Positions 33,501-40,606 of a DNA stretch of 40,606 bases are shown here, in pieces. Numbering within the stretch: position 1 is the stretch's first letter; each line of letters begins with the position of its first letter. The notes under the pieces were generated by a model. The model ran no database searches and was not told the origin of the DNA. It saw nothing but the letters and a program-made list of their open reading frames with translations. The DNA comes from Escherichia phage T7: the sequence record LR745708; one strand, given 5' to 3'. A program made the position numbers and the translations under genes.

Positions 33501-34552
33501 TAGGGACCTTGAAGTATTCAACACAGGAACTGGCTGCTCGCTCTCCGTGGACTAAGCTACTGAACGGAACCACTAACTACCTTCTGGATGCTGCGCGTCA
33601 AGGTATGCTTGGGGATGTTATTAGTGCCACCCTAACAGGTAAGACTACCCGCTGGGAGAAAGAAGGCTTCCTTCGTGGTGCCTCCGTAACTCCTGAGCAG
33701 ATGGCTGGCATCAAGTCTCTCATCAAGGAACATATGGTACGCGGTGAGGACGGGAAGTTTACCGTTAAGGACAAGCAAGCGTTCTCTATGGACCCACGGG
33801 CTATGGACTTATGGAGACTGGCTGACAAGGTAGCTGATGAGGCAATGCTGCGTCCACATAAGGTGTCCTTACAGGATTCCCATGCGTTCGGAGCACTAGG
33901 TAAGATGGTTATGCAGTTTAAGTCTTTCACTATCAAGTCCCTTAACTCTAAGTTCCTGCGAACCTTCTATGATGGATACAAGAACAACCGAGCGATTGAC
34001 GCTGCGCTGAGCATCATCACCTCTATGGGTCTCGCTGGTGGTTTCTATGCTATGGCTGCACACGTCAAAGCATACGCTCTGCCTAAGGAGAAACGTAAGG
34101 AGTACTTGGAGCGTGCACTGGACCCAACCATGATTGCCCACGCTGCGTTATCTCGTAGTTCTCAATTGGGTGCTCCTTTGGCTATGGTTGACCTAGTTGG
34201 TGGTGTTTTAGGGTTCGAGTCCTCCAAGATGGCTCGCTCTACGATTCTACCTAAGGACACCGTGAAGGAACGTGACCCAAACAAACCGTACACCTCTAGA
34301 GAGGTAATGGGCGCTATGGGTTCAAACCTTCTGGAACAGATGCCTTCGGCTGGCTTTGTGGCTAACGTAGGGGCTACCTTAATGAATGCTGCTGGCGTGG
34401 TCAACTCACCTAATAAAGCAACCGAGCAGGACTTCATGACTGGTCTTATGAACTCCACAAAAGAGTTAGTACCGAACGACCCATTGACTCAACAGCTTGT
34501 GTTGAAGATTTATGAGGCGAACGGTGTTAACTTGAGGGAGCGTAGGAAATAA
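30596..34552 (+). CDS. 16: Gene 16 internal virion protein D (N-terminal lytic transglycosylase domain)
   Basis: 1318-aa ORF; N-terminus has an SLT-like motif (...VAWTESRF...GPLGMMQF...). Confidence 0.95.
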   Translation: MDKYDKNVPSDYDGLFQKAADANGVSYDLLRKVAWTESRFVPTAKSKTGPLGMMQFTKATAKALGLRVTDGPDDDRLNPELAINAAAKQLAGLVGKFDGDELKAALAYNQGEGRLGNPQLEAYSKGDFASISEEGRNYMRNLLDVAKSPMAGQLETFGGITPKGKGIPAEVGLAGIGHKQKVTQELPESTSFDVKGIEQEATAKPFAKDFWETHGETLDEYNSRSTFFGFKNAAEAELSNSVAGMAFRAGRLDNGFDVFKDTITPTRWNSHIWTPEELEKIRTEVKNPAYINVVTGGSPENLDDLIKLANENFENDSRAAEAGLGAKLSAGIIGAGVDPLSYVPMVGVTGKGFKLINKALVVGAESAALNVASEGLRTSVAGGDADYAGAALGGFVFGAGMSAISDAVAAGLKRSKPEAEFDNEFIGPMMRLEARETARNANSADLSRMNTENMKFEGEHNGVPYEDLPTERGAVVLHDGSVLSASNPINPKTLKEFSEVDPEKAARGIKLAGFTEIGLKTLGSDDADIRRVAIDLVRSPTGMQSGASGKFGATASDIHERLHGTDQRTYNDLYKAMSDAMKDPEFSTGGAKMSREETRYTIYRRAALAIERPELQKALTPSERIVMDIIKRHFDTKRELMENPAIFGNTKAVSIFPESRHKGTYVPHVYDRHAKALMIQRYGAEGLQEGIARSWMNSYVSRPEVKARVDEMLKELHGVKEVTPEMVEKYAMDKAYGISHSDQFTNSSIIEENIEGLVGIENNSFLEARNLFDSDLSITMPDGQQFSVNDLRDFDMFRIMPAYDRRVNGDIAIMGSTGKTTKELKDEILALKAKAEGDGKKTGEVHALMDTVKILTGRARRNQDTVWETSLRAINDLGFFAKNAYMGAQNITEIAGMIVTGNVRALGHGIPILRDTLYKSKPVSAKELKELHASLFGKEVDQLIRPKRADIVQRLREATDTGPAVANIVGTLKYSTQELAARSPWTKLLNGTTNYLLDAARQGMLGDVISATLTGKTTRWEKEGFLRGASVTPEQMAGIKSLIKEHMVRGEDGKFTVKDKQAFSMDPRAMDLWRLADKVADEAMLRPHKVSLQDSHAFGALGKMVMQFKSFTIKSLNSKFLRTFYDGYKNNRAIDAALSIITSMGLAGGFYAMAAHVKAYALPKEKRKEYLERALDPTMIAHAALSRSSQLGAPLAMVDLVGGVLGFESSKMARSTILPKDTVKERDPNKPYTSREVMGAMGSNLLEQMPSAGFVANVGATLMNAAGVVNSPNKATEQDFMTGLMNSTKELVPNDPLTQQLVLKIYEANGVNLRERRK

Positions 34553-34572
34553 TACGACTCACTATAGGGAGA
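34550..34572 (+). promoter_or_regulatory. T7 promoter phi17
   Basis: taatacgactcactatagggaga overlapping the gene 16 stop. Confidence 0.9.
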
Positions 34573-34624
34573 GGCGAAATAATCTTCTCCCTGTAGTCTC
34601 TTAGATTTACTTTAAGGAGGTCAA

Positions 34625-36682
34625 ATGGCTAACGTAATTAAAACCGTTTTGACTTACCAGTTAGATGGCTCCAATCGTGATTTTAATATCCCGTTTGAGT
34701 ATCTAGCCCGTAAGTTCGTAGTGGTAACTCTTATTGGTGTAGACCGAAAGGTCCTTACGATTAATACAGACTATCGCTTTGCTACACGTACTACTATCTC
34801 TCTGACAAAGGCTTGGGGTCCAGCCGATGGCTACACGACCATCGAGTTACGTCGAGTAACCTCCACTACCGACCGATTGGTTGACTTTACGGATGGTTCA
34901 ATCCTCCGCGCGTATGACCTTAACGTCGCTCAGATTCAAACGATGCACGTAGCGGAAGAGGCCCGTGACCTCACTACGGATACTATCGGTGTCAATAACG
35001 ATGGTCACTTGGATGCTCGTGGTCGTCGAATTGTGAACCTAGCGAACGCCGTGGATGACCGCGATGCTGTTCCGTTTGGTCAACTAAAGACCATGAACCA
35101 GAACTCATGGCAAGCACGTAATGAAGCCTTACAGTTCCGTAATGAGGCTGAGACTTTCAGAAACCAAGCGGAGGGCTTTAAGAACGAGTCCAGTACCAAC
35201 GCTACGAACACAAAGCAGTGGCGCGATGAGACCAAGGGTTTCCGAGACGAAGCCAAGCGGTTCAAGAATACGGCTGGTCAATACGCTACATCTGCTGGGA
35301 ACTCTGCTTCCGCTGCGCATCAATCTGAGGTAAACGCTGAGAACTCTGCCACAGCATCCGCTAACTCTGCTCATTTGGCAGAACAGCAAGCAGACCGTGC
35401 GGAACGTGAGGCAGACAAGCTGGAAAATTACAATGGATTGGCTGGTGCAATTGATAAGGTAGATGGAACCAATGTGTACTGGAAAGGAAATATTCACGCT
35501 AACGGGCGCCTTTACATGACCACAAACGGTTTTGACTGTGGCCAGTATCAACAGTTCTTTGGTGGTGTCACTAATCGTTACTCTGTCATGGAGTGGGGAG
35601 ATGAGAACGGATGGCTGATGTATGTTCAACGTAGAGAGTGGACAACAGCGATAGGCGGTAACATCCAGTTAGTAGTAAACGGACAGATCATCACCCAAGG
35701 TGGAGCCATGACCGGTCAGCTAAAATTGCAGAATGGGCATGTTCTTCAATTAGAGTCCGCATCCGACAAGGCGCACTATATTCTATCTAAAGATGGTAAC
35801 AGGAATAACTGGTACATTGGTAGAGGGTCAGATAACAACAATGACTGTACCTTCCACTCCTATGTACATGGTACGACCTTAACACTCAAGCAGGACTATG
35901 CAGTAGTTAACAAACACTTCCACGTAGGTCAGGCCGTTGTGGCCACTGATGGTAATATTCAAGGTACTAAGTGGGGAGGTAAATGGCTGGATGCTTACCT
36001 ACGTGACAGCTTCGTTGCGAAGAACGAATACAGCCTGTGGGACATCAAGTTTCGCCCGGCTGCGCTCGACCCGCGCGGCATGACGCTGGTTGCCGGCGCG
36101 TTTTGGGCAGACATCTATCTGCTAGGCGTCAACCACCTGACCGATGGCACCAGCAAATACAACGTGACAATTGCAGATGGTAGTGCATCACCTAAGAAAT
36201 CTACCAAGTTCGGTGGAGACGGCAGCGCGGCCTACAGTGACGGAGCTTGGTACAACTTCGCTGAGGTCATGACTCATCACGGTAAGCGCCTGCCTAACTA
36301 CAACGAATTCCAGGCGCTGGCTTTCGGCACGACCGAGGCTACGTCCAGCGGCGGCACCGACGTGCCCACCACCGGCGTGAACGGCACGGGCGCAACGAGT
36401 GCGTGGAACATCTTCACGTCCAAGTGGGGCGTTGTGCAGGCGTCCGGTTGCTTGTGGACGTGGGGTAACGAGTTCGGCGGCGTGAATGGCGCATCCGAAT
36501 ACACGGCCAACACTGGCGGCAGAGGATCGGTGTACGCCCAGCCCGCTGCTGCGCTATTCGGCGGCGCCTGGAACGGCACGTCGCTCTCGGGTTCTCGCGC
36601 TGCGCTCTGGTACAGCGGGCCGTCGTTCTCGTTCGCGTTCTTCGGGGCGCGCGGCGTCTGTGACCACCTGATTCTTGAGTAG
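34625..36682 (+). CDS. 17: Chimeric tail-fibre protein: T7 gp17 residues 1-466 fused to a heterologous ~219-aa C-terminal receptor-binding domain (Mtd-like C-type-lectin fold with DGR variable region)
   Basis: 685-aa ORF against 553 aa for native gp17 as I recall. Translation is T7 gp17 up to ...GGKWLDAYLRDSFVAK (codon 466, nt 36020-36022), then diverges into GC-rich sequence NEYSLWDIKFRPAALDPRGMTLVAGAFWADIYLLG...GARGVCDHLILE. Confidence 0.9.
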   Translation: MANVIKTVLTYQLDGSNRDFNIPFEYLARKFVVVTLIGVDRKVLTINTDYRFATRTTISLTKAWGPADGYTTIELRRVTSTTDRLVDFTDGSILRAYDLNVAQIQTMHVAEEARDLTTDTIGVNNDGHLDARGRRIVNLANAVDDRDAVPFGQLKTMNQNSWQARNEALQFRNEAETFRNQAEGFKNESSTNATNTKQWRDETKGFRDEAKRFKNTAGQYATSAGNSASAAHQSEVNAENSATASANSAHLAEQQADRAEREADKLENYNGLAGAIDKVDGTNVYWKGNIHANGRLYMTTNGFDCGQYQQFFGGVTNRYSVMEWGDENGWLMYVQRREWTTAIGGNIQLVVNGQIITQGGAMTGQLKLQNGHVLQLESASDKAHYILSKDGNRNNWYIGRGSDNNNDCTFHSYVHGTTLTLKQDYAVVNKHFHVGQAVVATDGNIQGTKWGGKWLDAYLRDSFVAKNEYSLWDIKFRPAALDPRGMTLVAGAFWADIYLLGVNHLTDGTSKYNVTIADGSASPKKSTKFGGDGSAAYSDGAWYNFAEVMTHHGKRLPNYNEFQALAFGTTEATSSGGTDVPTTGVNGTGATSAWNIFTSKWGVVQASGCLWTWGNEFGGVNGASEYTANTGGRGSVYAQPAAALFGGAWNGTSLSGSRAALWYSGPSFSFAFFGARGVCDHLILE
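36023..36682 (+). other. Heterologous graft within gene 17 (GC-rich; Mtd-like domain)
   Basis: Abrupt rise in G+C and change of codon usage relative to flanking T7 sequence; the encoded C-terminus ...AALFGGAWNGTSLSGSRAALWYSGPSFSFAFFGARGVCDHLILE resembles, from memory, the BPP-1 Mtd variable-region end. Confidence 0.65.
36544..36680 (+). other. Putative DGR variable region (VR) with IMH-like 3' end
   Basis: ~135-bp stretch that is strongly adenine-poor, with many NNC codons (gcc, aac, ggc, ctc, tac, agc, ttc x4), ending in a GC-only run (ggggcgcgcggcg) and tctgtgaccacctgattcttgag. Confidence 0.6.
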
Positions 36683-36701
36683 CGGGGCCGAAAGGCCCCG
36701 C
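36682..36701 (+). promoter_or_regulatory. GC-rich hairpin with GAAA loop straddling the gene 17 stop (DGR target-recognition hairpin/cruciform-like)
   Basis: gcggggcc-GAAA-ggccccgc: a perfect 8-bp stem with a 4-nt GAAA loop, directly readable. Confidence 0.7.
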
Positions 36702-36723
36702 CAAGGCAACCGTACTCGAACCA

Positions 36724-36760
36724 CTAGCCCGCTCTTATCGGGCGGCTAGGGGTTTTTTGT
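36724..36760 (+). terminator. Putative terminator-like element (imperfect hairpin + G4T6)
   Basis: ctagcccgctcttatcgggcggctag forms an imperfect stem, followed by gggttttttg, which mimics the tail of Tphi (gaggggttttttg). Confidence 0.4.
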
Positions 36761-36784
36761 GATTTACTTTAAGGAGGTCAAATG
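36761..36784 (+). promoter_or_regulatory. Duplicated gene 17 ribosome-binding site driving trxA
   Basis: gatttactttaaggaggtcaaATG at 36761-36784 is identical to 34604-34627, the native gene 17 RBS and start. Confidence 0.9.
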
Positions 36785-37111
36785 AGCGATAAAATCATTC
36801 ACCTGACCGATGACTCTTTTGATACCGACGTGCTGAAAGCTGATGGTGCAATTCTGGTTGATTTCTGGGCAGAGTGGTGCGGCCCTTGCAAAATGATCGC
36901 TCCAATCCTGGACGAAATTGCGGACGAATATCAGGGTAAGCTGACTGTGGCCAAACTGAACATTGACCAGAACCCTGGCACCGCACCGAAATACGGTATC
37001 CGTGGCATCCCAACTCTGCTGCTGTTCAAAAACGGTGAAGTGGCAGCAACCAAAGTAGGCGCTCTGTCTAAAGGCCAACTGAAAGAGTTCCTGGACGCCA
37101 ACCTGGCTTAA
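36782..37111 (+). CDS. trxA: Thioredoxin 1 (E. coli TrxA, identical protein), inserted into the phage genome
   Basis: 109-aa product [109 protein letters not shown] with the CGPC active site; not a T7 gene. Confidence 0.97.
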
Positions 37112-37172
37112 TGATTGGTAAATCACAAGGAAAGACGTGTAGTCCACGGATGGACTCTCAAGGAGGTACAAG

Positions 37173-37376
37173 GTGCTATCATTAGACTTTAACAACGAAT
37201 TGATTAAGGCTGCTCCAATTGTTGGGACGGGTGTAGCAGATGTTAGTGCTCGACTGTTCTTTGGGTTAAGCCTTAACGAATGGTTCTACGTTGCTGCTAT
37301 CGCCTACACAGTGGTTCAGATTGGTGCCAAGGTAGTCGATAAGATGATTGACTGGAAGAAAGCCAATAAGGAGTGA
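37173..37376 (+). CDS. 17.5: Gene 17.5 holin
   Basis: GTG at 37173 after AGGAGG; 67 aa with a hydrophobic core, MLSLDFNNELIKAAPIVGTGVADVSARLFFGL... Confidence 0.85.
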   Translation: MLSLDFNNELIKAAPIVGTGVADVSARLFFGLSLNEWFYVAAIAYTVVQIGAKVVDKMIDWKKANKE

Positions 37377-37381
37377 TATGT

Positions 37382-37651
37382 ATGGAAAAGGATAAGAGCC
37401 TTATTACATTCTTAGAGATGTTGGACACTGCGATGGCTCAGCGTATGCTTGCGGACCTTTCGGACCATGAGCGTCGCTCTCCGCAACTCTATAATGCTAT
37501 TAACAAACTGTTAGACCGCCACAAGTTCCAGATTGGTAAGTTGCAGCCGGATGTTCACATCTTAGGTGGCCTTGCTGGTGCTCTTGAAGAGTACAAAGAG
37601 AAAGTCGGTGATAACGGTCTTACGGATGATGATATTTACACATTACAGTGA
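37382..37651 (+). CDS. 18: Gene 18 terminase small subunit
   Basis: ATG at 37382; 89 aa MEKDKSLITFLEMLDTAMAQRM...; ORF-track start 37373 is an upstream extension. Confidence 0.85.
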   Translation: MEKDKSLITFLEMLDTAMAQRMLADLSDHERRSPQLYNAINKLLDRHKFQIGKLQPDVHILGGLAGALEEYKEKVGDNGLTDDDIYTLQ

Positions 37652-37692
37652 TATACTCAAGGCCACTACAGATAGTGGTCTTTATGGATGTC
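37652..37692 (+). promoter_or_regulatory. RNase III processing site R18.5
   Basis: tatactcaaggccactacagatagtggtctttatggatg hairpin motif. Confidence 0.5.
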
Positions 37693-37745
37693 ATTGTCTA
37701 TACGAGATGCTCCTACGTGAAATCTGAAAGTTAACGGGAGGCATT

Positions 37746-38177
37746 ATGCTAGAATTTTTACGTAAGCTAATCCCTTGGGTTCTCGCTGGGATGCTATTCG
37801 GGTTAGGATGGCATCTAGGGTCAGACTCAATGGACGCTAAATGGAAACAGGAGGTACACAATGAGTACGTTAAGAGAGTTGAGGCTGCGAAGAGCACTCA
37901 AAGAGCAATCGATGCGGTATCTGCTAAGTATCAAGAAGACCTTGCCGCGCTGGAAGGGAGCACTGATAGGATTATTTCTGATTTGCGTAGCGACAATAAG
38001 CGGTTGCGCGTCAGAGTCAAAACTACCGGAACCTCCGATGGTCAGTGTGGATTCGAGCCTGATGGTCGAGCCGAACTTGACGACCGAGATGCTAAACGTA
38101 TTCTCGCAGTGACCCAGAAGGGTGACGCATGGATTCGTGCGTTACAGGATACTATTCGTGAACTGCAACGTAAGTAG
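37746..38177 (+). CDS. 18.5: Gene 18.5 spanin (Rz-like, inner-membrane component)
   Basis: 143 aa with an N-terminal transmembrane segment (LIPWVLAGMLFGLGWHLG). Confidence 0.85.
   Translation: MLEFLRKLIPWVLAGMLFGLGWHLGSDSMDAKWKQEVHNEYVKRVEAAKSTQRAIDAVSAKYQEDLAALEGSTDRIISDLRSDNKRLRVRVKTTGTSDGQCGFEPDGRAELDDRDAKRILAVTQKGDAWIRALQDTIRELQRK
37861..38112 (+). CDS. 18.7: Gene 18.7 spanin (Rz1-like), embedded in 18.5 in another frame
   Basis: 83-aa ORF nested inside 18.5; contains a lipobox-like LICVATISGCAS. Confidence 0.7.
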   Translation: MSTLRELRLRRALKEQSMRYLLSIKKTLPRWKGALIGLFLICVATISGCASESKLPEPPMVSVDSSLMVEPNLTTEMLNVFSQ

Positions 38178-38198
38178 GAAATCAAGTAAGGAGGCAAT

Positions 38199-39959
38199 GT
38201 GTCTACTCAATCCAATCGTAATGCGCTCGTAGTGGCGCAACTGAAAGGAGACTTCGTGGCGTTCCTATTCGTCTTATGGAAGGCGCTAAACCTACCGGTG
38301 CCCACTAAGTGTCAGATTGACATGGCTAAGGTGCTGGCGAATGGAGACAACAAGAAGTTCATCTTACAGGCTTTCCGTGGTATCGGTAAGTCGTTCATCA
38401 CATGTGCGTTCGTTGTGTGGTCCTTATGGAGAGACCCTCAGTTGAAGATACTTATCGTATCAGCCTCTAAGGAGCGTGCAGACGCTAACTCCATCTTTAT
38501 TAAGAACATCATTGACCTGCTGCCATTCCTATCTGAGTTAAAGCCAAGACCCGGACAGCGTGACTCGGTAATCAGCTTTGATGTAGGCCCAGCCAATCCT
38601 GACCACTCTCCTAGTGTGAAATCAGTAGGTATCACTGGTCAGTTAACTGGTAGCCGTGCTGACATTATCATTGCGGATGACGTTGAGATTCCGTCTAACA
38701 GCGCAACTATGGGTGCCCGTGAGAAGCTATGGACTCTGGTTCAGGAGTTCGCTGCGTTACTTAAACCGCTGCCTTCCTCTCGCGTTATCTACCTTGGTAC
38801 ACCTCAGACAGAGATGACTCTCTATAAGGAACTTGAGGATAACCGTGGGTACACAACCATTATCTGGCCTGCTCTGTACCCAAGGACACGTGAAGAGAAC
38901 CTCTATTACTCACAGCGTCTTGCTCCTATGTTACGCGCTGAGTACGATGAGAACCCTGAGGCACTTGCTGGGACTCCAACAGACCCAGTGCGCTTTGACC
39001 GTGATGACCTGCGCGAGCGTGAGTTGGAATACGGTAAGGCTGGCTTTACGCTACAGTTCATGCTTAACCCTAACCTTAGTGATGCCGAGAAGTACCCGCT
39101 GAGGCTTCGTGACGCTATCGTAGCGGCCTTAGACTTAGAGAAGGCCCCAATGCATTACCAGTGGCTTCCGAACCGTCAGAACATCATTGAGGACCTTCCT
39201 AACGTTGGCCTTAAGGGTGATGACCTGCATACGTACCACGATTGTTCCAACAACTCAGGTCAGTACCAACAGAAGATTCTGGTCATTGACCCTAGTGGTC
39301 GCGGTAAGGACGAAACAGGTTACGCTGTGCTGTACACACTGAACGGTTACATCTACCTTATGGAAGCTGGAGGTTTCCGTGATGGCTACTCCGATAAGAC
39401 CCTTGAGTTACTCGCTAAGAAGGCAAAGCAATGGGGAGTCCAGACGGTTGTCTACGAGAGTAACTTCGGTGACGGTATGTTCGGTAAGGTATTCAGTCCT
39501 ATCCTTCTTAAACACCACAACTGTGCGATGGAAGAGATTCGTGCCCGTGGTATGAAAGAGATGCGTATTTGCGATACCCTTGAGCCAGTCATGCAGACTC
39601 ACCGCCTTGTAATTCGTGATGAGGTCATTAGGGCCGACTACCAGTCCGCTCGTGACGTAGACGGTAAGCATGACGTTAAGTACTCGTTGTTCTACCAGAT
39701 GACCCGTATCACTCGTGAGAAAGGCGCTCTGGCTCATGATGACCGATTGGATGCCCTTGCGTTAGGCATTGAGTATCTCCGTGAGTCCATGCAGTTGGAT
39801 TCCGTTAAGGTCGAGGGTGAAGTACTTGCTGACTTCCTTGAGGAACACATGATGCGTCCTACGGTTGCTGCTACGCATATCATTGAGATGTCTGTGGGAG
39901 GAGTTGATGTGTACTCTGAGGACGATGAGGGTTACGGTACGTCTTTCATTGAGTGGTGA
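38199..39959 (+). CDS. 19: Gene 19 terminase large subunit
   Basis: GTG at 38199 after AGGAGG; 586 aa [19 protein letters not shown]... Confidence 0.95.
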
Positions 39960-40040
39960 TTTATGCATTAGGACTGCATAGGGATGCACTATAGACCACG
40001 GATGGTCAGTTCTTTAAGTTACTGAAAAGACACGATAAAT

Positions 40041-40063
40041 TAATACGACTCACTATAGGGAGA
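40041..40063 (+). promoter_or_regulatory. T7 promoter phiOR
   Basis: taatacgactcactatagggaga. Confidence 0.9.
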
Positions 40064-40217
40064 GGAGGGACGAAAGGTTACTATATAGATACTGAATGAA
40101 TACTTATAGAGTGCATAAAGTATGCATAATGGTGTACCTAGAGTGACCTCTAAGAATGGTGATTATATTGTATTAGTATCACCTTAACTTAAGGACCAAC
40201 ATAAAGGGAGGAGACTC

Positions 40218-40367
40218 ATGTTCCGCTTATTGTTGAACCTACTGCGGCATAGAGTCACCTACCGATTTCTTGTGGTACTTTGTGCTGCCCTTGGGTACGC
40301 ATCTCTTACTGGAGACCTCAGTTCACTGGAGTCTGTCGTTTGCTCTATACTCACTTGTAGCGATTAG
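40218..40367 (+). CDS. 19.5: Gene 19.5
   Basis: ATG at 40218 after GGGAGGAG; 49 aa MFRLLLNLLRHRVTYRFLVVLCAALG... Confidence 0.7.
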   Translation: MFRLLLNLLRHRVTYRFLVVLCAALGYASLTGDLSSLESVVCSILTCSD

Positions 40368-40439
40368 GGTCTTCCTGACCGACTGATGGCTCACCGAGGG
40401 ATTCAGCGGTATGATTGCATCACACCACTTCATCCCTAT

Positions 40440-40606
40440 AGAGTCAAGTCCTAAGGTATACCCATAAAGAGCCTCTAATGGTCTATCCTAAGGTCTATAC
40501 CTAAAGATAGGCCATCCTATCAGTGTCACCTAAAGAGGGTCTTAGAGAGGGCCTATGGAGTTCCTATAGGGTCCTTTAAAATATACCATAAAAATCTGAG
40601 TGACTA
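40440..40606. repeat. Right-end short CCTAAAG-like repeat region, ending immediately before the right terminal repeat
   Basis: cctaaggt..., acctaaagataggcc, cacctaaagaggg repeats; window ends ...aaatctgagtgacta, the sequence I recall directly preceding the terminal repeat. Confidence 0.6.

What the first reader, a model, noticed from the sequence alone, without database searches (positions are those of the whole stretch)
36023..36760. Compositional island marks the foreign segment
G+C in this ~0.74-kb stretch is visibly much higher than in the flanking T7 sequence, with long runs such as ggggcgcgcggcg and cagcggcggcaccgacgtgcccaccaccggcgtgaacggcacgggcgc. The boundary is sharp at codon 467 of gene 17, consistent with a high-GC donor such as a Bordetella phage. 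The first ~200 bp of the graft looks less GC-rich than the rest, so the graft itself may be composite or partly recoded.
Basis: seen in the sequence. Interest (0 to 1): 0.5.

Follow-up and report, generated by a model that had tools for sequence, protein, structure and literature searches.

The report
Synthetic Bordetella-phage graft in engineered T7
The GC-rich island is real, but it is a man-made, already published insert: a synthetic piece of the Bordetella phage BPP-1 receptor-binding gene (mtd) fused to the T7 tail-fibre gene, followed by a synthetic terminator and a trxA selection marker.

Summary
Region 36023-36760 is 61.9% G+C against 48.6% for the window (z = 5.9), and it is the richest 738-bp stretch anywhere. 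The left edge lies exactly at codon 467 of T7 gene 17.

The island is one synthetic DNA fragment (a "g-block") with three parts:
- **36023-36682:** codons 163-381 plus the stop of BPP-1 mtd. The protein is 100% identical to Mtd.
- **36683-36712:** the native BPP-1 hairpin and spacer downstream of mtd.
- **36713-36760:** the synthetic T7 terminator of Temme et al.

A duplicated gene-17 ribosome-binding site and a recoded E. coli trxA follow the island.

The window is phage "phAG_3" of Grigonyte et al. 2020 (Viruses 12:193). It has that phage's junction, its Gibson primer, its g-block and its diagnostic SNV (T7 24876 A>G).

There are 25 differences from native mtd, all synonymous and all G/C to A/T. 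Eighteen of them cluster in 36169-36295, which lowers that block from 61.7% to 51.7% G+C. The dip is therefore at graft bases 109-288, not in the first 200 bp.

The DGR target elements (VR1, IMH, hairpin) are left native, but no TR, avd or brt is present. The authors reported all Mtd fusions non-infective on E. coli.

Verdict: already known and engineered, so of low interest.

The parts
34625..36022 (+). T7 gene 17 codons 1-466 (tail-attachment domain, shaft and pyramid domain); the native tip domain is removed
   Evidence: Window 1-36022 is 99.99% identical to T7 V01146. Pfam finds Phage_T7_tail at residues 1-162 and gp37_trimer at 371-464. PDB 7boz gp17 residues 1-468 match.
35933..36022 (+). 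Homology arm HR1 of the recombination plasmid (pAG25)
   Evidence: The ends of the HR1 sequence in the supplement of PMC7077284 are located at 35933 and 36022.
36023..36682 (+). BPP-1 mtd codons 163-381 plus TAG stop, fused in frame. It covers the last 8 residues of the beta-sandwich domain and the C-type-lectin-fold receptor-binding domain.
   Evidence: tblastn gives Mtd 163-381 at 100% identity. PDB 1yu0 Mtd-P1 residues 162-381 match at E = 1.9e-145. The design matches 'phAG_3: gp17 1-466 + Mtd 163-382' in Table S4. The Gibson primer GTGACAGCTTCGTTGCGAAGAACGAATACAGCCTGTGGGA lies at 36003-36042.
36131..36310 (+). Recoded low-GC patch inside the graft (18 synonymous G/C->A/T third-position changes at 36169-36295)
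   Evidence: G+C is 0.517 here against 0.617 in native mtd, and GC3 is 0.60 against 0.90. The same changes appear in the published g-block and in LR745707.
36544..36677 (+). DGR variable repeat VR1 in its native sequence. A 14-nt G/C-only run lies at 36643-36656. The last 21 nt (36657-36677) contain the 5 non-adenine TR/VR differences, which I read as the IMH.
   Evidence: 134 of 134 bases are identical to the VR1 annotated in AY029185.2. TR and VR differ at 22 positions: 17 at TR adenines and 5 in the last 21 nt. The element names and lengths are from my own knowledge of the BPP-1 DGR literature.
36682..36701 (+). Native BPP-1 hairpin/cruciform element (8-bp GC stem, GAAA loop), a cis element needed for DGR retrohoming
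   Evidence: The MFE is -20.1 kcal/mol with z = -3.4. It is identical to BPP-1. Its role is described in PMC3240598.
36702..36712 (+). Native BPP-1 spacer CAAGGCAACCG; this is the end of BPP-1-derived DNA
   Evidence: The blastn match of the BPP-1 locus ends at 36712 (alignment).
36713..36760 (+). Synthetic T7 RNA polymerase terminator (Temme et al.), carrying one substitution (C>A at 36723) in the 5' stem arm
   Evidence: It matches the 48-nt 'T7 terminator from Temme et al.' quoted in two papers at 47 of 48 bases. The fold is -20.8 kcal/mol against -27.9 for the canonical sequence. It forms the tail of the mtd g-block. There is no match in the phage or plasmid collections.
36761..36784 (+). 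Exact 24-bp copy of the gene-17 ribosome-binding site plus ATG, which drives trxA
   Evidence: Direct repeat D1, 34604-34627 = 36761-36784, is 100% identical.
36782..37111 (+). Recoded E. coli trxA (thioredoxin), the positive-selection marker
   Evidence: The protein is 100% identical to E. coli TrxA. DNA identity is only 86.1% to all 5426 E. coli genomes. Pfam finds Thioredoxin. The paper describes trxA selection on a delta-trxA host.
37115..37204 (+). Homology arm HR2; T7 sequence resumes (T7 36285 onward)
   Evidence: Window 37114-40606 is 100% identical to T7 36285-39777. The HR2 ends were located.

Best explanation
The island is the footprint of deliberate genome engineering. The window is the assembled genome of T7 mutant 'phAG_3' (Grigonyte et al. 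2020, Viruses 12:193; project PRJEB35760).

A commercially synthesised DNA fragment was placed between two ~90-bp T7 homology arms. It carries the 3' 660 nt of Bordetella phage BPP-1 mtd, the native 30 nt downstream of mtd, and a synthetic T7 terminator. It was recombined into T7 together with a recoded trxA marker, replacing gene 17 codons 467-553. Recombinants were selected on E. coli delta-trxA.

The high G+C is simply the donor's composition: BPP-1 mtd is 66% G+C with GC3 of 0.86. The internal dip comes from 24 designed synonymous G/C->A/T changes. I infer these were made to ease DNA synthesis or lower G+C. They are not E. coli codon optimisation, because one change is CGC>AGA, which I know as a rare E. 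coli codon. The changes stop 21 nt before VR1, so VR1, the IMH and the hairpin stay native.

The encoded 685-aa protein joins the T7 fibre (tail attachment, shaft, pyramid domain) to the Mtd receptor-binding domain in place of the T7 tip domain. The stated aim was to expand T7's host range. Retargeting to the Bordetella receptor pertactin is my inference. The authors reported that all Mtd fusions are non-infective on E. coli and must be propagated with wild-type gp17 supplied in trans.

The identity, boundaries, recoding and construct are shown. The purpose of the recoding and the reason for non-function are inferred; the likely reason is loss of the E. coli-binding tip and/or a misfolded trimer.
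For: - **Composition:**
- **Donor identity:** (BPP-1 and relatives 92-96% identical; the engineered T7 record LR745707 99.8%; Mtd 163-381, 100% at the protein level; PDB 1yu0 and 7boz).
- **Recoding:** (25 of 25 differences synonymous and G/C->A/T).
- **Match to the published construct:** Table S4 design and the Table S6 SNV 24876 A>G, with that SNV found at window 24877. The pAG_25 and trxA Gibson primers lie at 36003-36042 and 36741-36786. The g-block in Figure S7 aligns to 36023-36760 with only machine-reading dropouts and two differences.
- **Synthetic terminator:**
- **Recoded trxA:**
- **Phenotype and method:**
- **Only a DGR target is present:**
Against: Nothing substantial. The exact record for this genome was not in the phage collection searched; the nearest is LR745707 at 99.3% over 34000-38000. 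The assignment to phAG_3 therefore rests on the design, the primers, the g-block and one SNV, not on an identical accession. The supplement says the RBS is 'B0034', whereas the window has a copy of the gene-17 RBS. Two bases (36400 and 36723) differ from the published or canonical sequences.
Confidence: 0.97

Rival explanations
1. Natural horizontal transfer: a T7-like phage acquired a Bordetella-phage receptor-binding module by recombination in nature.
For: Tail-fibre tips are common natural mosaic points. The junction is in frame and lies at a domain boundary.
Against: The graft is followed by a 48-nt synthetic terminator known only from synthetic-biology papers, with no match in 50,697 phage or 72,556 plasmid records. 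It is also followed by a trxA recoded to 86% identity with every E. coli genome. The junction equals a published Gibson primer. The rest of the genome is laboratory T7, differing at only 3 positions.
Confidence: 0.01
2. Assembly or contamination artefact: Bordetella-phage reads were mis-joined to T7 in the assembly.
For: The genome is a short-read SPAdes assembly, and its right terminal repeat is collapsed.
Against: The fusion is in frame and gives one 685-aa ORF. Both junctions match the designed primers and homology arms exactly. A sister construct, LR745707, shows the same recoded graft.
Confidence: 0.01
3. The GC dip inside the graft reflects a second donor (a composite graft), or only the native composition of mtd, and not recoding.
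For: The native mtd block is slightly less GC-rich than its neighbours: 0.617 against 0.648 and 0.677.
Against: All 219 codons encode exactly Mtd 163-381. The drop from 0.617 to 0.517 is fully accounted for by 18 synonymous third-position G/C->A/T changes. The same changes are printed in the published synthetic g-block.
Confidence: 0.01

Closest known systems
T7 mutant phAG_3 (gp17 1-466 :: Mtd 163-382, trxA), Grigonyte et al. 2020, Viruses 12:193 (PMC7077284), project PRJEB35760
   Same: The junction, graft extent, g-block sequence, terminator tail, trxA cassette, homology arms and the single reported SNV (24876 A>G) all match.
   Different: 36400 is T where the g-block has C. 36723 is A where the canonical terminator has C; the printed g-block is unreadable at that base. 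The supplement names RBS B0034, but the sequence has the gene-17 RBS.
GenBank LR745707.1 (engineered T7 with a gp17 1-466 + BPP-1 Mtd chimaeric fibre and trxA)
   Same: It has the same recoded graft, hairpin, RBS copy and trxA, and is 99.3% identical over 34000-38000.
   Different: Its junction is 8 codons later (K466|K171). It lacks the 48-bp terminator by design, as the pAG_23 primers show. It carries different SNVs elsewhere.
Bordetella phage BPP-1 mtd / DGR tropism-switching cassette (AY029185.2)
   Same: The protein sequence over Mtd 163-381 is identical. VR1, the last 21 nt of VR1 (read as the IMH) and the downstream hairpin are identical at the DNA level.
   Different: There are 25 synonymous changes upstream of VR1. 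The N-terminal 162 residues of Mtd are absent. TR, avd (bbp7) and brt are absent, so no diversification can occur in cis.
Natural and engineered T7-family tail-fibre tip swaps (for example T7 with the Yep-phi gp17 C-terminus, LR745709)
   Same: The exchange point after gp17 residue 466 and the trxA marker strategy are the same.
   Different: The Yep-phi tip is a homologue of the T7 tip and gave an infective phage. Mtd is an unrelated fold from an unrelated phage and gave non-infective particles.

Membership tests
Published construct phAG_3 (Grigonyte et al. 2020) | gp17 codons 1-466 fused to Mtd codons 163-382 (including the stop) | tested here: met
   The ORF 34625-36682 is 685 aa. Mtd 163-381 maps to 36023-36679 at 100% identity, matching Table S4.
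Published construct phAG_3 (Grigonyte et al. 2020) | Insert equals the mtd g-block, joined with the pAG_25 Gibson primers and followed by full-length trxA between HR1 and HR2 | tested here: met
   The primers and arms were located exactly. The g-block alignment shows only machine-reading dropouts plus differences at 36400 and 36723.
Published construct phAG_3 (Grigonyte et al. 2020) | Diagnostic SNV at T7 24876, A>G | tested here: met
   Window 24877 is G where T7 24876 is A, as in Table S6.
Diversity-generating retroelement (DGR) | Variable repeat at the 3' end of a target gene, with the IMH and a downstream GC-stem/GRNA-loop hairpin | tested here: met
   VR1 is 134/134 identical at 36544-36677, and the hairpin lies at 36682-36701. 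The requirements are set out in PMC3240598.
Diversity-generating retroelement (DGR) | Template repeat (TR) near the VR | tested here: not met
   The TR sequence is absent from the window. The only TR-like match is VR1 itself at 83.6%.
Diversity-generating retroelement (DGR) | Reverse transcriptase (Brt) and accessory protein Avd | tested here: not met
   tblastn of Brt and Avd against the window finds nothing better than E = 0.38. The window therefore carries a DGR target, not a DGR.
Mtd receptor-binding domain (C-type lectin fold) | Sequence identity to the structurally solved Mtd C-terminal domain | tested here: met
   Residues 466-685 match 1yu0_A residues 162-381 at E = 1.9e-145. The best match is the P1 variant, which I know as pertactin-binding. 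No structure of the chimera was predicted.
T7 gp17 tail fibre | N-terminal tail-attachment domain and pyramid (trimerisation) domain | tested here: met
   PF03906 covers residues 1-162 and PF20744 covers 371-464.
T7 gp17 tail fibre | C-terminal tip domain (residues ~467-553) that recognises E. coli | tested here: not met
   Matches to gp17 structures stop at residue 468. T7 36022-36284 is replaced.
Natural genomic island (horizontal transfer) | Foreign DNA of natural origin without laboratory parts | tested here: not met
   A synthetic terminator, recoded trxA, recoded mtd and primer-exact junctions are present.

The most novel reading that the evidence does not exclude
The single C>A change at 36723, in the stem of the synthetic T7 terminator, may be an adaptive escape mutation and not a synthesis error. 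The terminator lies between the phi17 promoter and trxA plus genes 17.5-19. No further T7 promoter core was found before window 40041, near the right end of the genome. A fully efficient terminator would therefore starve the selection marker and the packaging and lysis genes. Selection on delta-trxA cells could then favour a weakened stem (-27.9 to -20.8 kcal/mol). A second reading also remains open. Because VR1, the IMH and the hairpin are kept native, this T7 could be diversified if avd-TR-brt were supplied in trans.
Probability: 0.25. Interest if true: 0.15.

Novelty: already known. Interest (0 to 1): 0.07.

Why it matters
It matters mainly as a quality-control result. The scan correctly flagged a foreign segment from composition alone, and the segment proves to be a published laboratory graft, not a natural mosaic. 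Such records should be excluded from, or labelled in, any survey of natural horizontal transfer or natural DGR targets in T7-like phages. The construct is a documented negative result: the Mtd domain did not work on a T7 fibre when tested on E. coli. It is also an example of a DGR target site transplanted without its retroelement.

Tried and rejected
- **Terminator searches.** I searched the 48-63-bp terminator region against the plasmid and phage collections and found no match. It was identified only by a literal sequence search of papers.
- **Terminator scan.** The simple terminator scan did not flag 36713-36760. The likely reasons are the stem mismatch and the internal bulge. The fold calculation does show the hairpin.
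- **Missing terminator in LR745707.** I considered that its absence was a selected deletion. I rejected this because the pAG_23 reverse primer joins CAAGGCAACCG directly to the RBS by design.
- **Design base at 36723.** I tried to decide from the supplement whether A at 36723 was in the design. The machine-read text has lost a base exactly there. Most of its other dropouts are in homopolymer runs, which would favour CCCC, but one is not, so the question stays open.
- **Frame error.** My first codon-position calculation used the wrong frame. I repeated it correctly.
- **Other DGR parts.** I looked for other DGR components in the window and found none.

Full report
**Observation**

The stretch 36023-36760 is 61.9% G+C in a window of 48.6%. 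All 738-bp windows that do not overlap it have mean 48.5% and sd 2.3%, with a maximum of 55.7%, so the island is 5.9 sd out and is the richest stretch in the window (profile). The immediate flanks are 47.3% and 47.2%.

In the correct reading frame, third-position G+C rises from 0.481 in gene 17 codons 1-466 to 0.753 in codons 467-685. The 21 long forward ORFs of the window average 0.515, with a maximum of 0.572. My first codon-position table was out of frame and should be ignored.

Identity to T7 (V01146) runs to base 36022 and resumes at 37114. The right boundary, 36760, is exactly the last base of a synthetic fragment.

Bases 36023-36130 are 62% G+C. The dip is 36131-36310 at 51.7%, and 36311-36682 is 66.7%.

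**What the island is**

A single ORF, 34625-36682, encodes 685 aa. Residues 1-468 match T7 gp17 structures (7boz). Residues 466-685 match the Bordetella phage BPP-1 major tropism determinant Mtd-P1 (1yu0, residues 162-381, E = 1.9e-145). Pfam finds the T7 fibre N-terminal domain and the pyramid/trimerisation domain (371-464), but nothing of the T7 tip.

At the DNA level the island matches BPP-1 and its relatives at 92-96%. At the protein level it is 100% identical to Mtd 163-381.

Against native mtd there are 25 nucleotide differences. All are synonymous and all are G/C to A/T. Eighteen are packed into 36169-36295. These take that block from a native 61.7% down to 51.7% G+C, and its GC3 from 0.90 to 0.60. 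The last change (CGC>AGA at 36521/36523) also removes a CCGCGG site that the native sequence has there.

No change falls inside VR1 (36544-36677), which is 134/134 identical to the VR1 annotated in BPP-1. The next 21 nt (36657-36677) hold the five non-adenine differences between TR and VR. From my own knowledge of the BPP-1 DGR I read that stretch as the IMH.

Three further elements follow the stop codon:
- **36682-36701:** the native BPP-1 hairpin (8-bp GC stem, GAAA loop; -20.1 kcal/mol).
- **36702-36712:** an 11-nt native spacer, where BPP-1 homology ends.
- **36713-36760:** a 48-nt element that matches at 47 of 48 bases the sequence quoted as the "T7 terminator from Temme et al." in two synthetic-biology papers.

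After the island come an exact 24-bp copy of the gene-17 ribosome-binding site plus ATG and a trxA gene. That trxA encodes E. coli thioredoxin exactly but is only 86.1% identical in DNA to all 5426 complete E. coli genomes, so it is recoded.

**Provenance**

The phage collection holds sister constructs annotated as [quoted passage not shown] with trxA (LR745707), and a Yep-phi version (LR745709). These belong to Grigonyte et al. 2020 (PMC7077284). That paper made T7 tail-fibre fusions by homologous recombination with trxA selection on E. coli delta-trxA and sequenced four of them.

The evidence tying the window to phAG_3 is as follows:
- Table S4 lists phAG_3 as gp17 1-466 + Mtd 163-382, made from plasmid pAG25. 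That is the junction seen here.
- The pAG_25 Gibson primer lies at 36003-36042, the trxA g-block primer at 36741-36786, and the homology arms at 35933-36022 and 37115-37204.
- The mtd g-block printed in Figure S7 aligns to 36023-36760. The differences are machine-reading dropouts plus two bases, 36400 and 36723.
- The only SNV the paper reports for phAG_3 (T7 24876 A>G) is present at window 24877.

I conclude that the window is the phAG_3 genome. The exact accession was not in the collection searched, so the match rests on design features and not on an identical record.

**How it works**

This is a designed domain swap. From the literature as I know it, T7 gp17 ends in a tip domain (about residues 465-553) that recognises E. 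coli, and Mtd residues 171-381 form the C-type-lectin-fold domain whose VR-encoded residues bind pertactin. The paper also thanks M. van Raaij for help with the fusion design.

The fusion keeps the T7 parts needed to attach to the tail and to trimerise, and presents the Mtd binding domain in place of the tip. The high G+C is the donor's own composition. The dip is designed recoding. I infer it was done to make the fragment synthesisable or less GC-rich, since the changes include the rare codon AGA and so are not E. coli codon optimisation.

Keeping VR1, the IMH region and the hairpin native preserves everything that Guo et al. 2011 found necessary in cis for DGR retrohoming (PMC3240598). The window nevertheless has no TR, avd or brt, so it is a DGR target without a DGR.

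The authors report that all Mtd fusions were non-infective on E. coli and grew only with wild-type gp17 supplied in trans.

**Rivals**

- **Natural horizontal transfer** is excluded by the synthetic terminator, the recoded trxA and mtd, and the primer-exact junctions.
- **An assembly artefact** is excluded by the in-frame fusion, the designed junctions and the sister record.
- **A second donor inside the coding graft** is excluded by the 100% Mtd protein identity and by the dip being fully explained by synonymous changes.

**Comparison, novelty and verdict**

The feature is a member of a published set of constructs, so it is already known. It resembles natural tail-fibre mosaicism only superficially. 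It is not a DGR, because three of the defining parts were tested and are absent.

Interest is low. The remaining curiosities are the stem substitution in the terminator, one silent SNV in the graft, and some labelling inconsistencies between the paper and the database records.

Noticed in passing
window 36723 (within 36713-36760): The synthetic T7 terminator differs from the canonical Temme et al. sequence by C>A in the 5' stem arm. This creates a mismatch and weakens the predicted hairpin from -27.9 to -20.8 kcal/mol. It lies upstream of trxA and genes 17.5-19, with no further T7 promoter core found before window 40041. It could be a selected weakening or a synthesis error.
   Followed up: partly
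window 36400: A synonymous C>T change (AGC>AGT, Mtd Ser288) relative to both the published g-block and LR745707. It is not listed among the paper's SNVs for phAG_3.
   Followed up: partly
window 34604-34627 and 36761-36784: An exact 24-bp duplication of the gene-17 RBS plus ATG drives trxA, whereas the paper's plasmid table names RBS B0034. Recombination between the two copies would delete the chimaeric gene and leave gene 17 replaced by trxA, which is the phAG_7 layout.
   Followed up: partly
window 36782-37111: trxA is fully recoded: 86.1% DNA identity to every one of 5426 E. coli genomes, with 100% protein identity.
   Followed up: yes
window 40447-40606 (right end): The assembly ends at T7 position 39777. 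The 160-bp terminal repeat is present only at the left end, so the right copy was collapsed in assembly.
   Followed up: yes
L005 (LR745707.1) 36021 and 36686; SNVs at 742, 1897-1900, 19559: LR745707 has the architecture of pAG_23/phAG_1 (K466|K171 junction, no terminator). It carries the SNVs that the paper's Table S6 lists for phAG_4, whose primers specify an I170 junction and the terminator. This looks like a label mismatch between the paper and the record. It also has an unlisted A>G change at T7 34975 in gene 17.
   Followed up: partly
L003 (LR745709.1) 2501-2573: The functional T7/Yep-phi fusion carries 73 bp of BPP-1 sequence (the 3' end of VR1 with the IMH region, the stop and the hairpin) right after its gene 17 stop codon. 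This is the minimal element shown by Guo et al. 2011 to direct a DGR to a heterologous gene. It suggests an intention to diversify by DGR that is not discussed in the passages of the paper I read.
   Followed up: partly
window 1896 and 24158: A one-base insertion (A) and a C>T change relative to V01146. The 24158 change is shared with LR745707, so it is probably a difference of the laboratory stock or reference and not a new mutation.
   Followed up: partly
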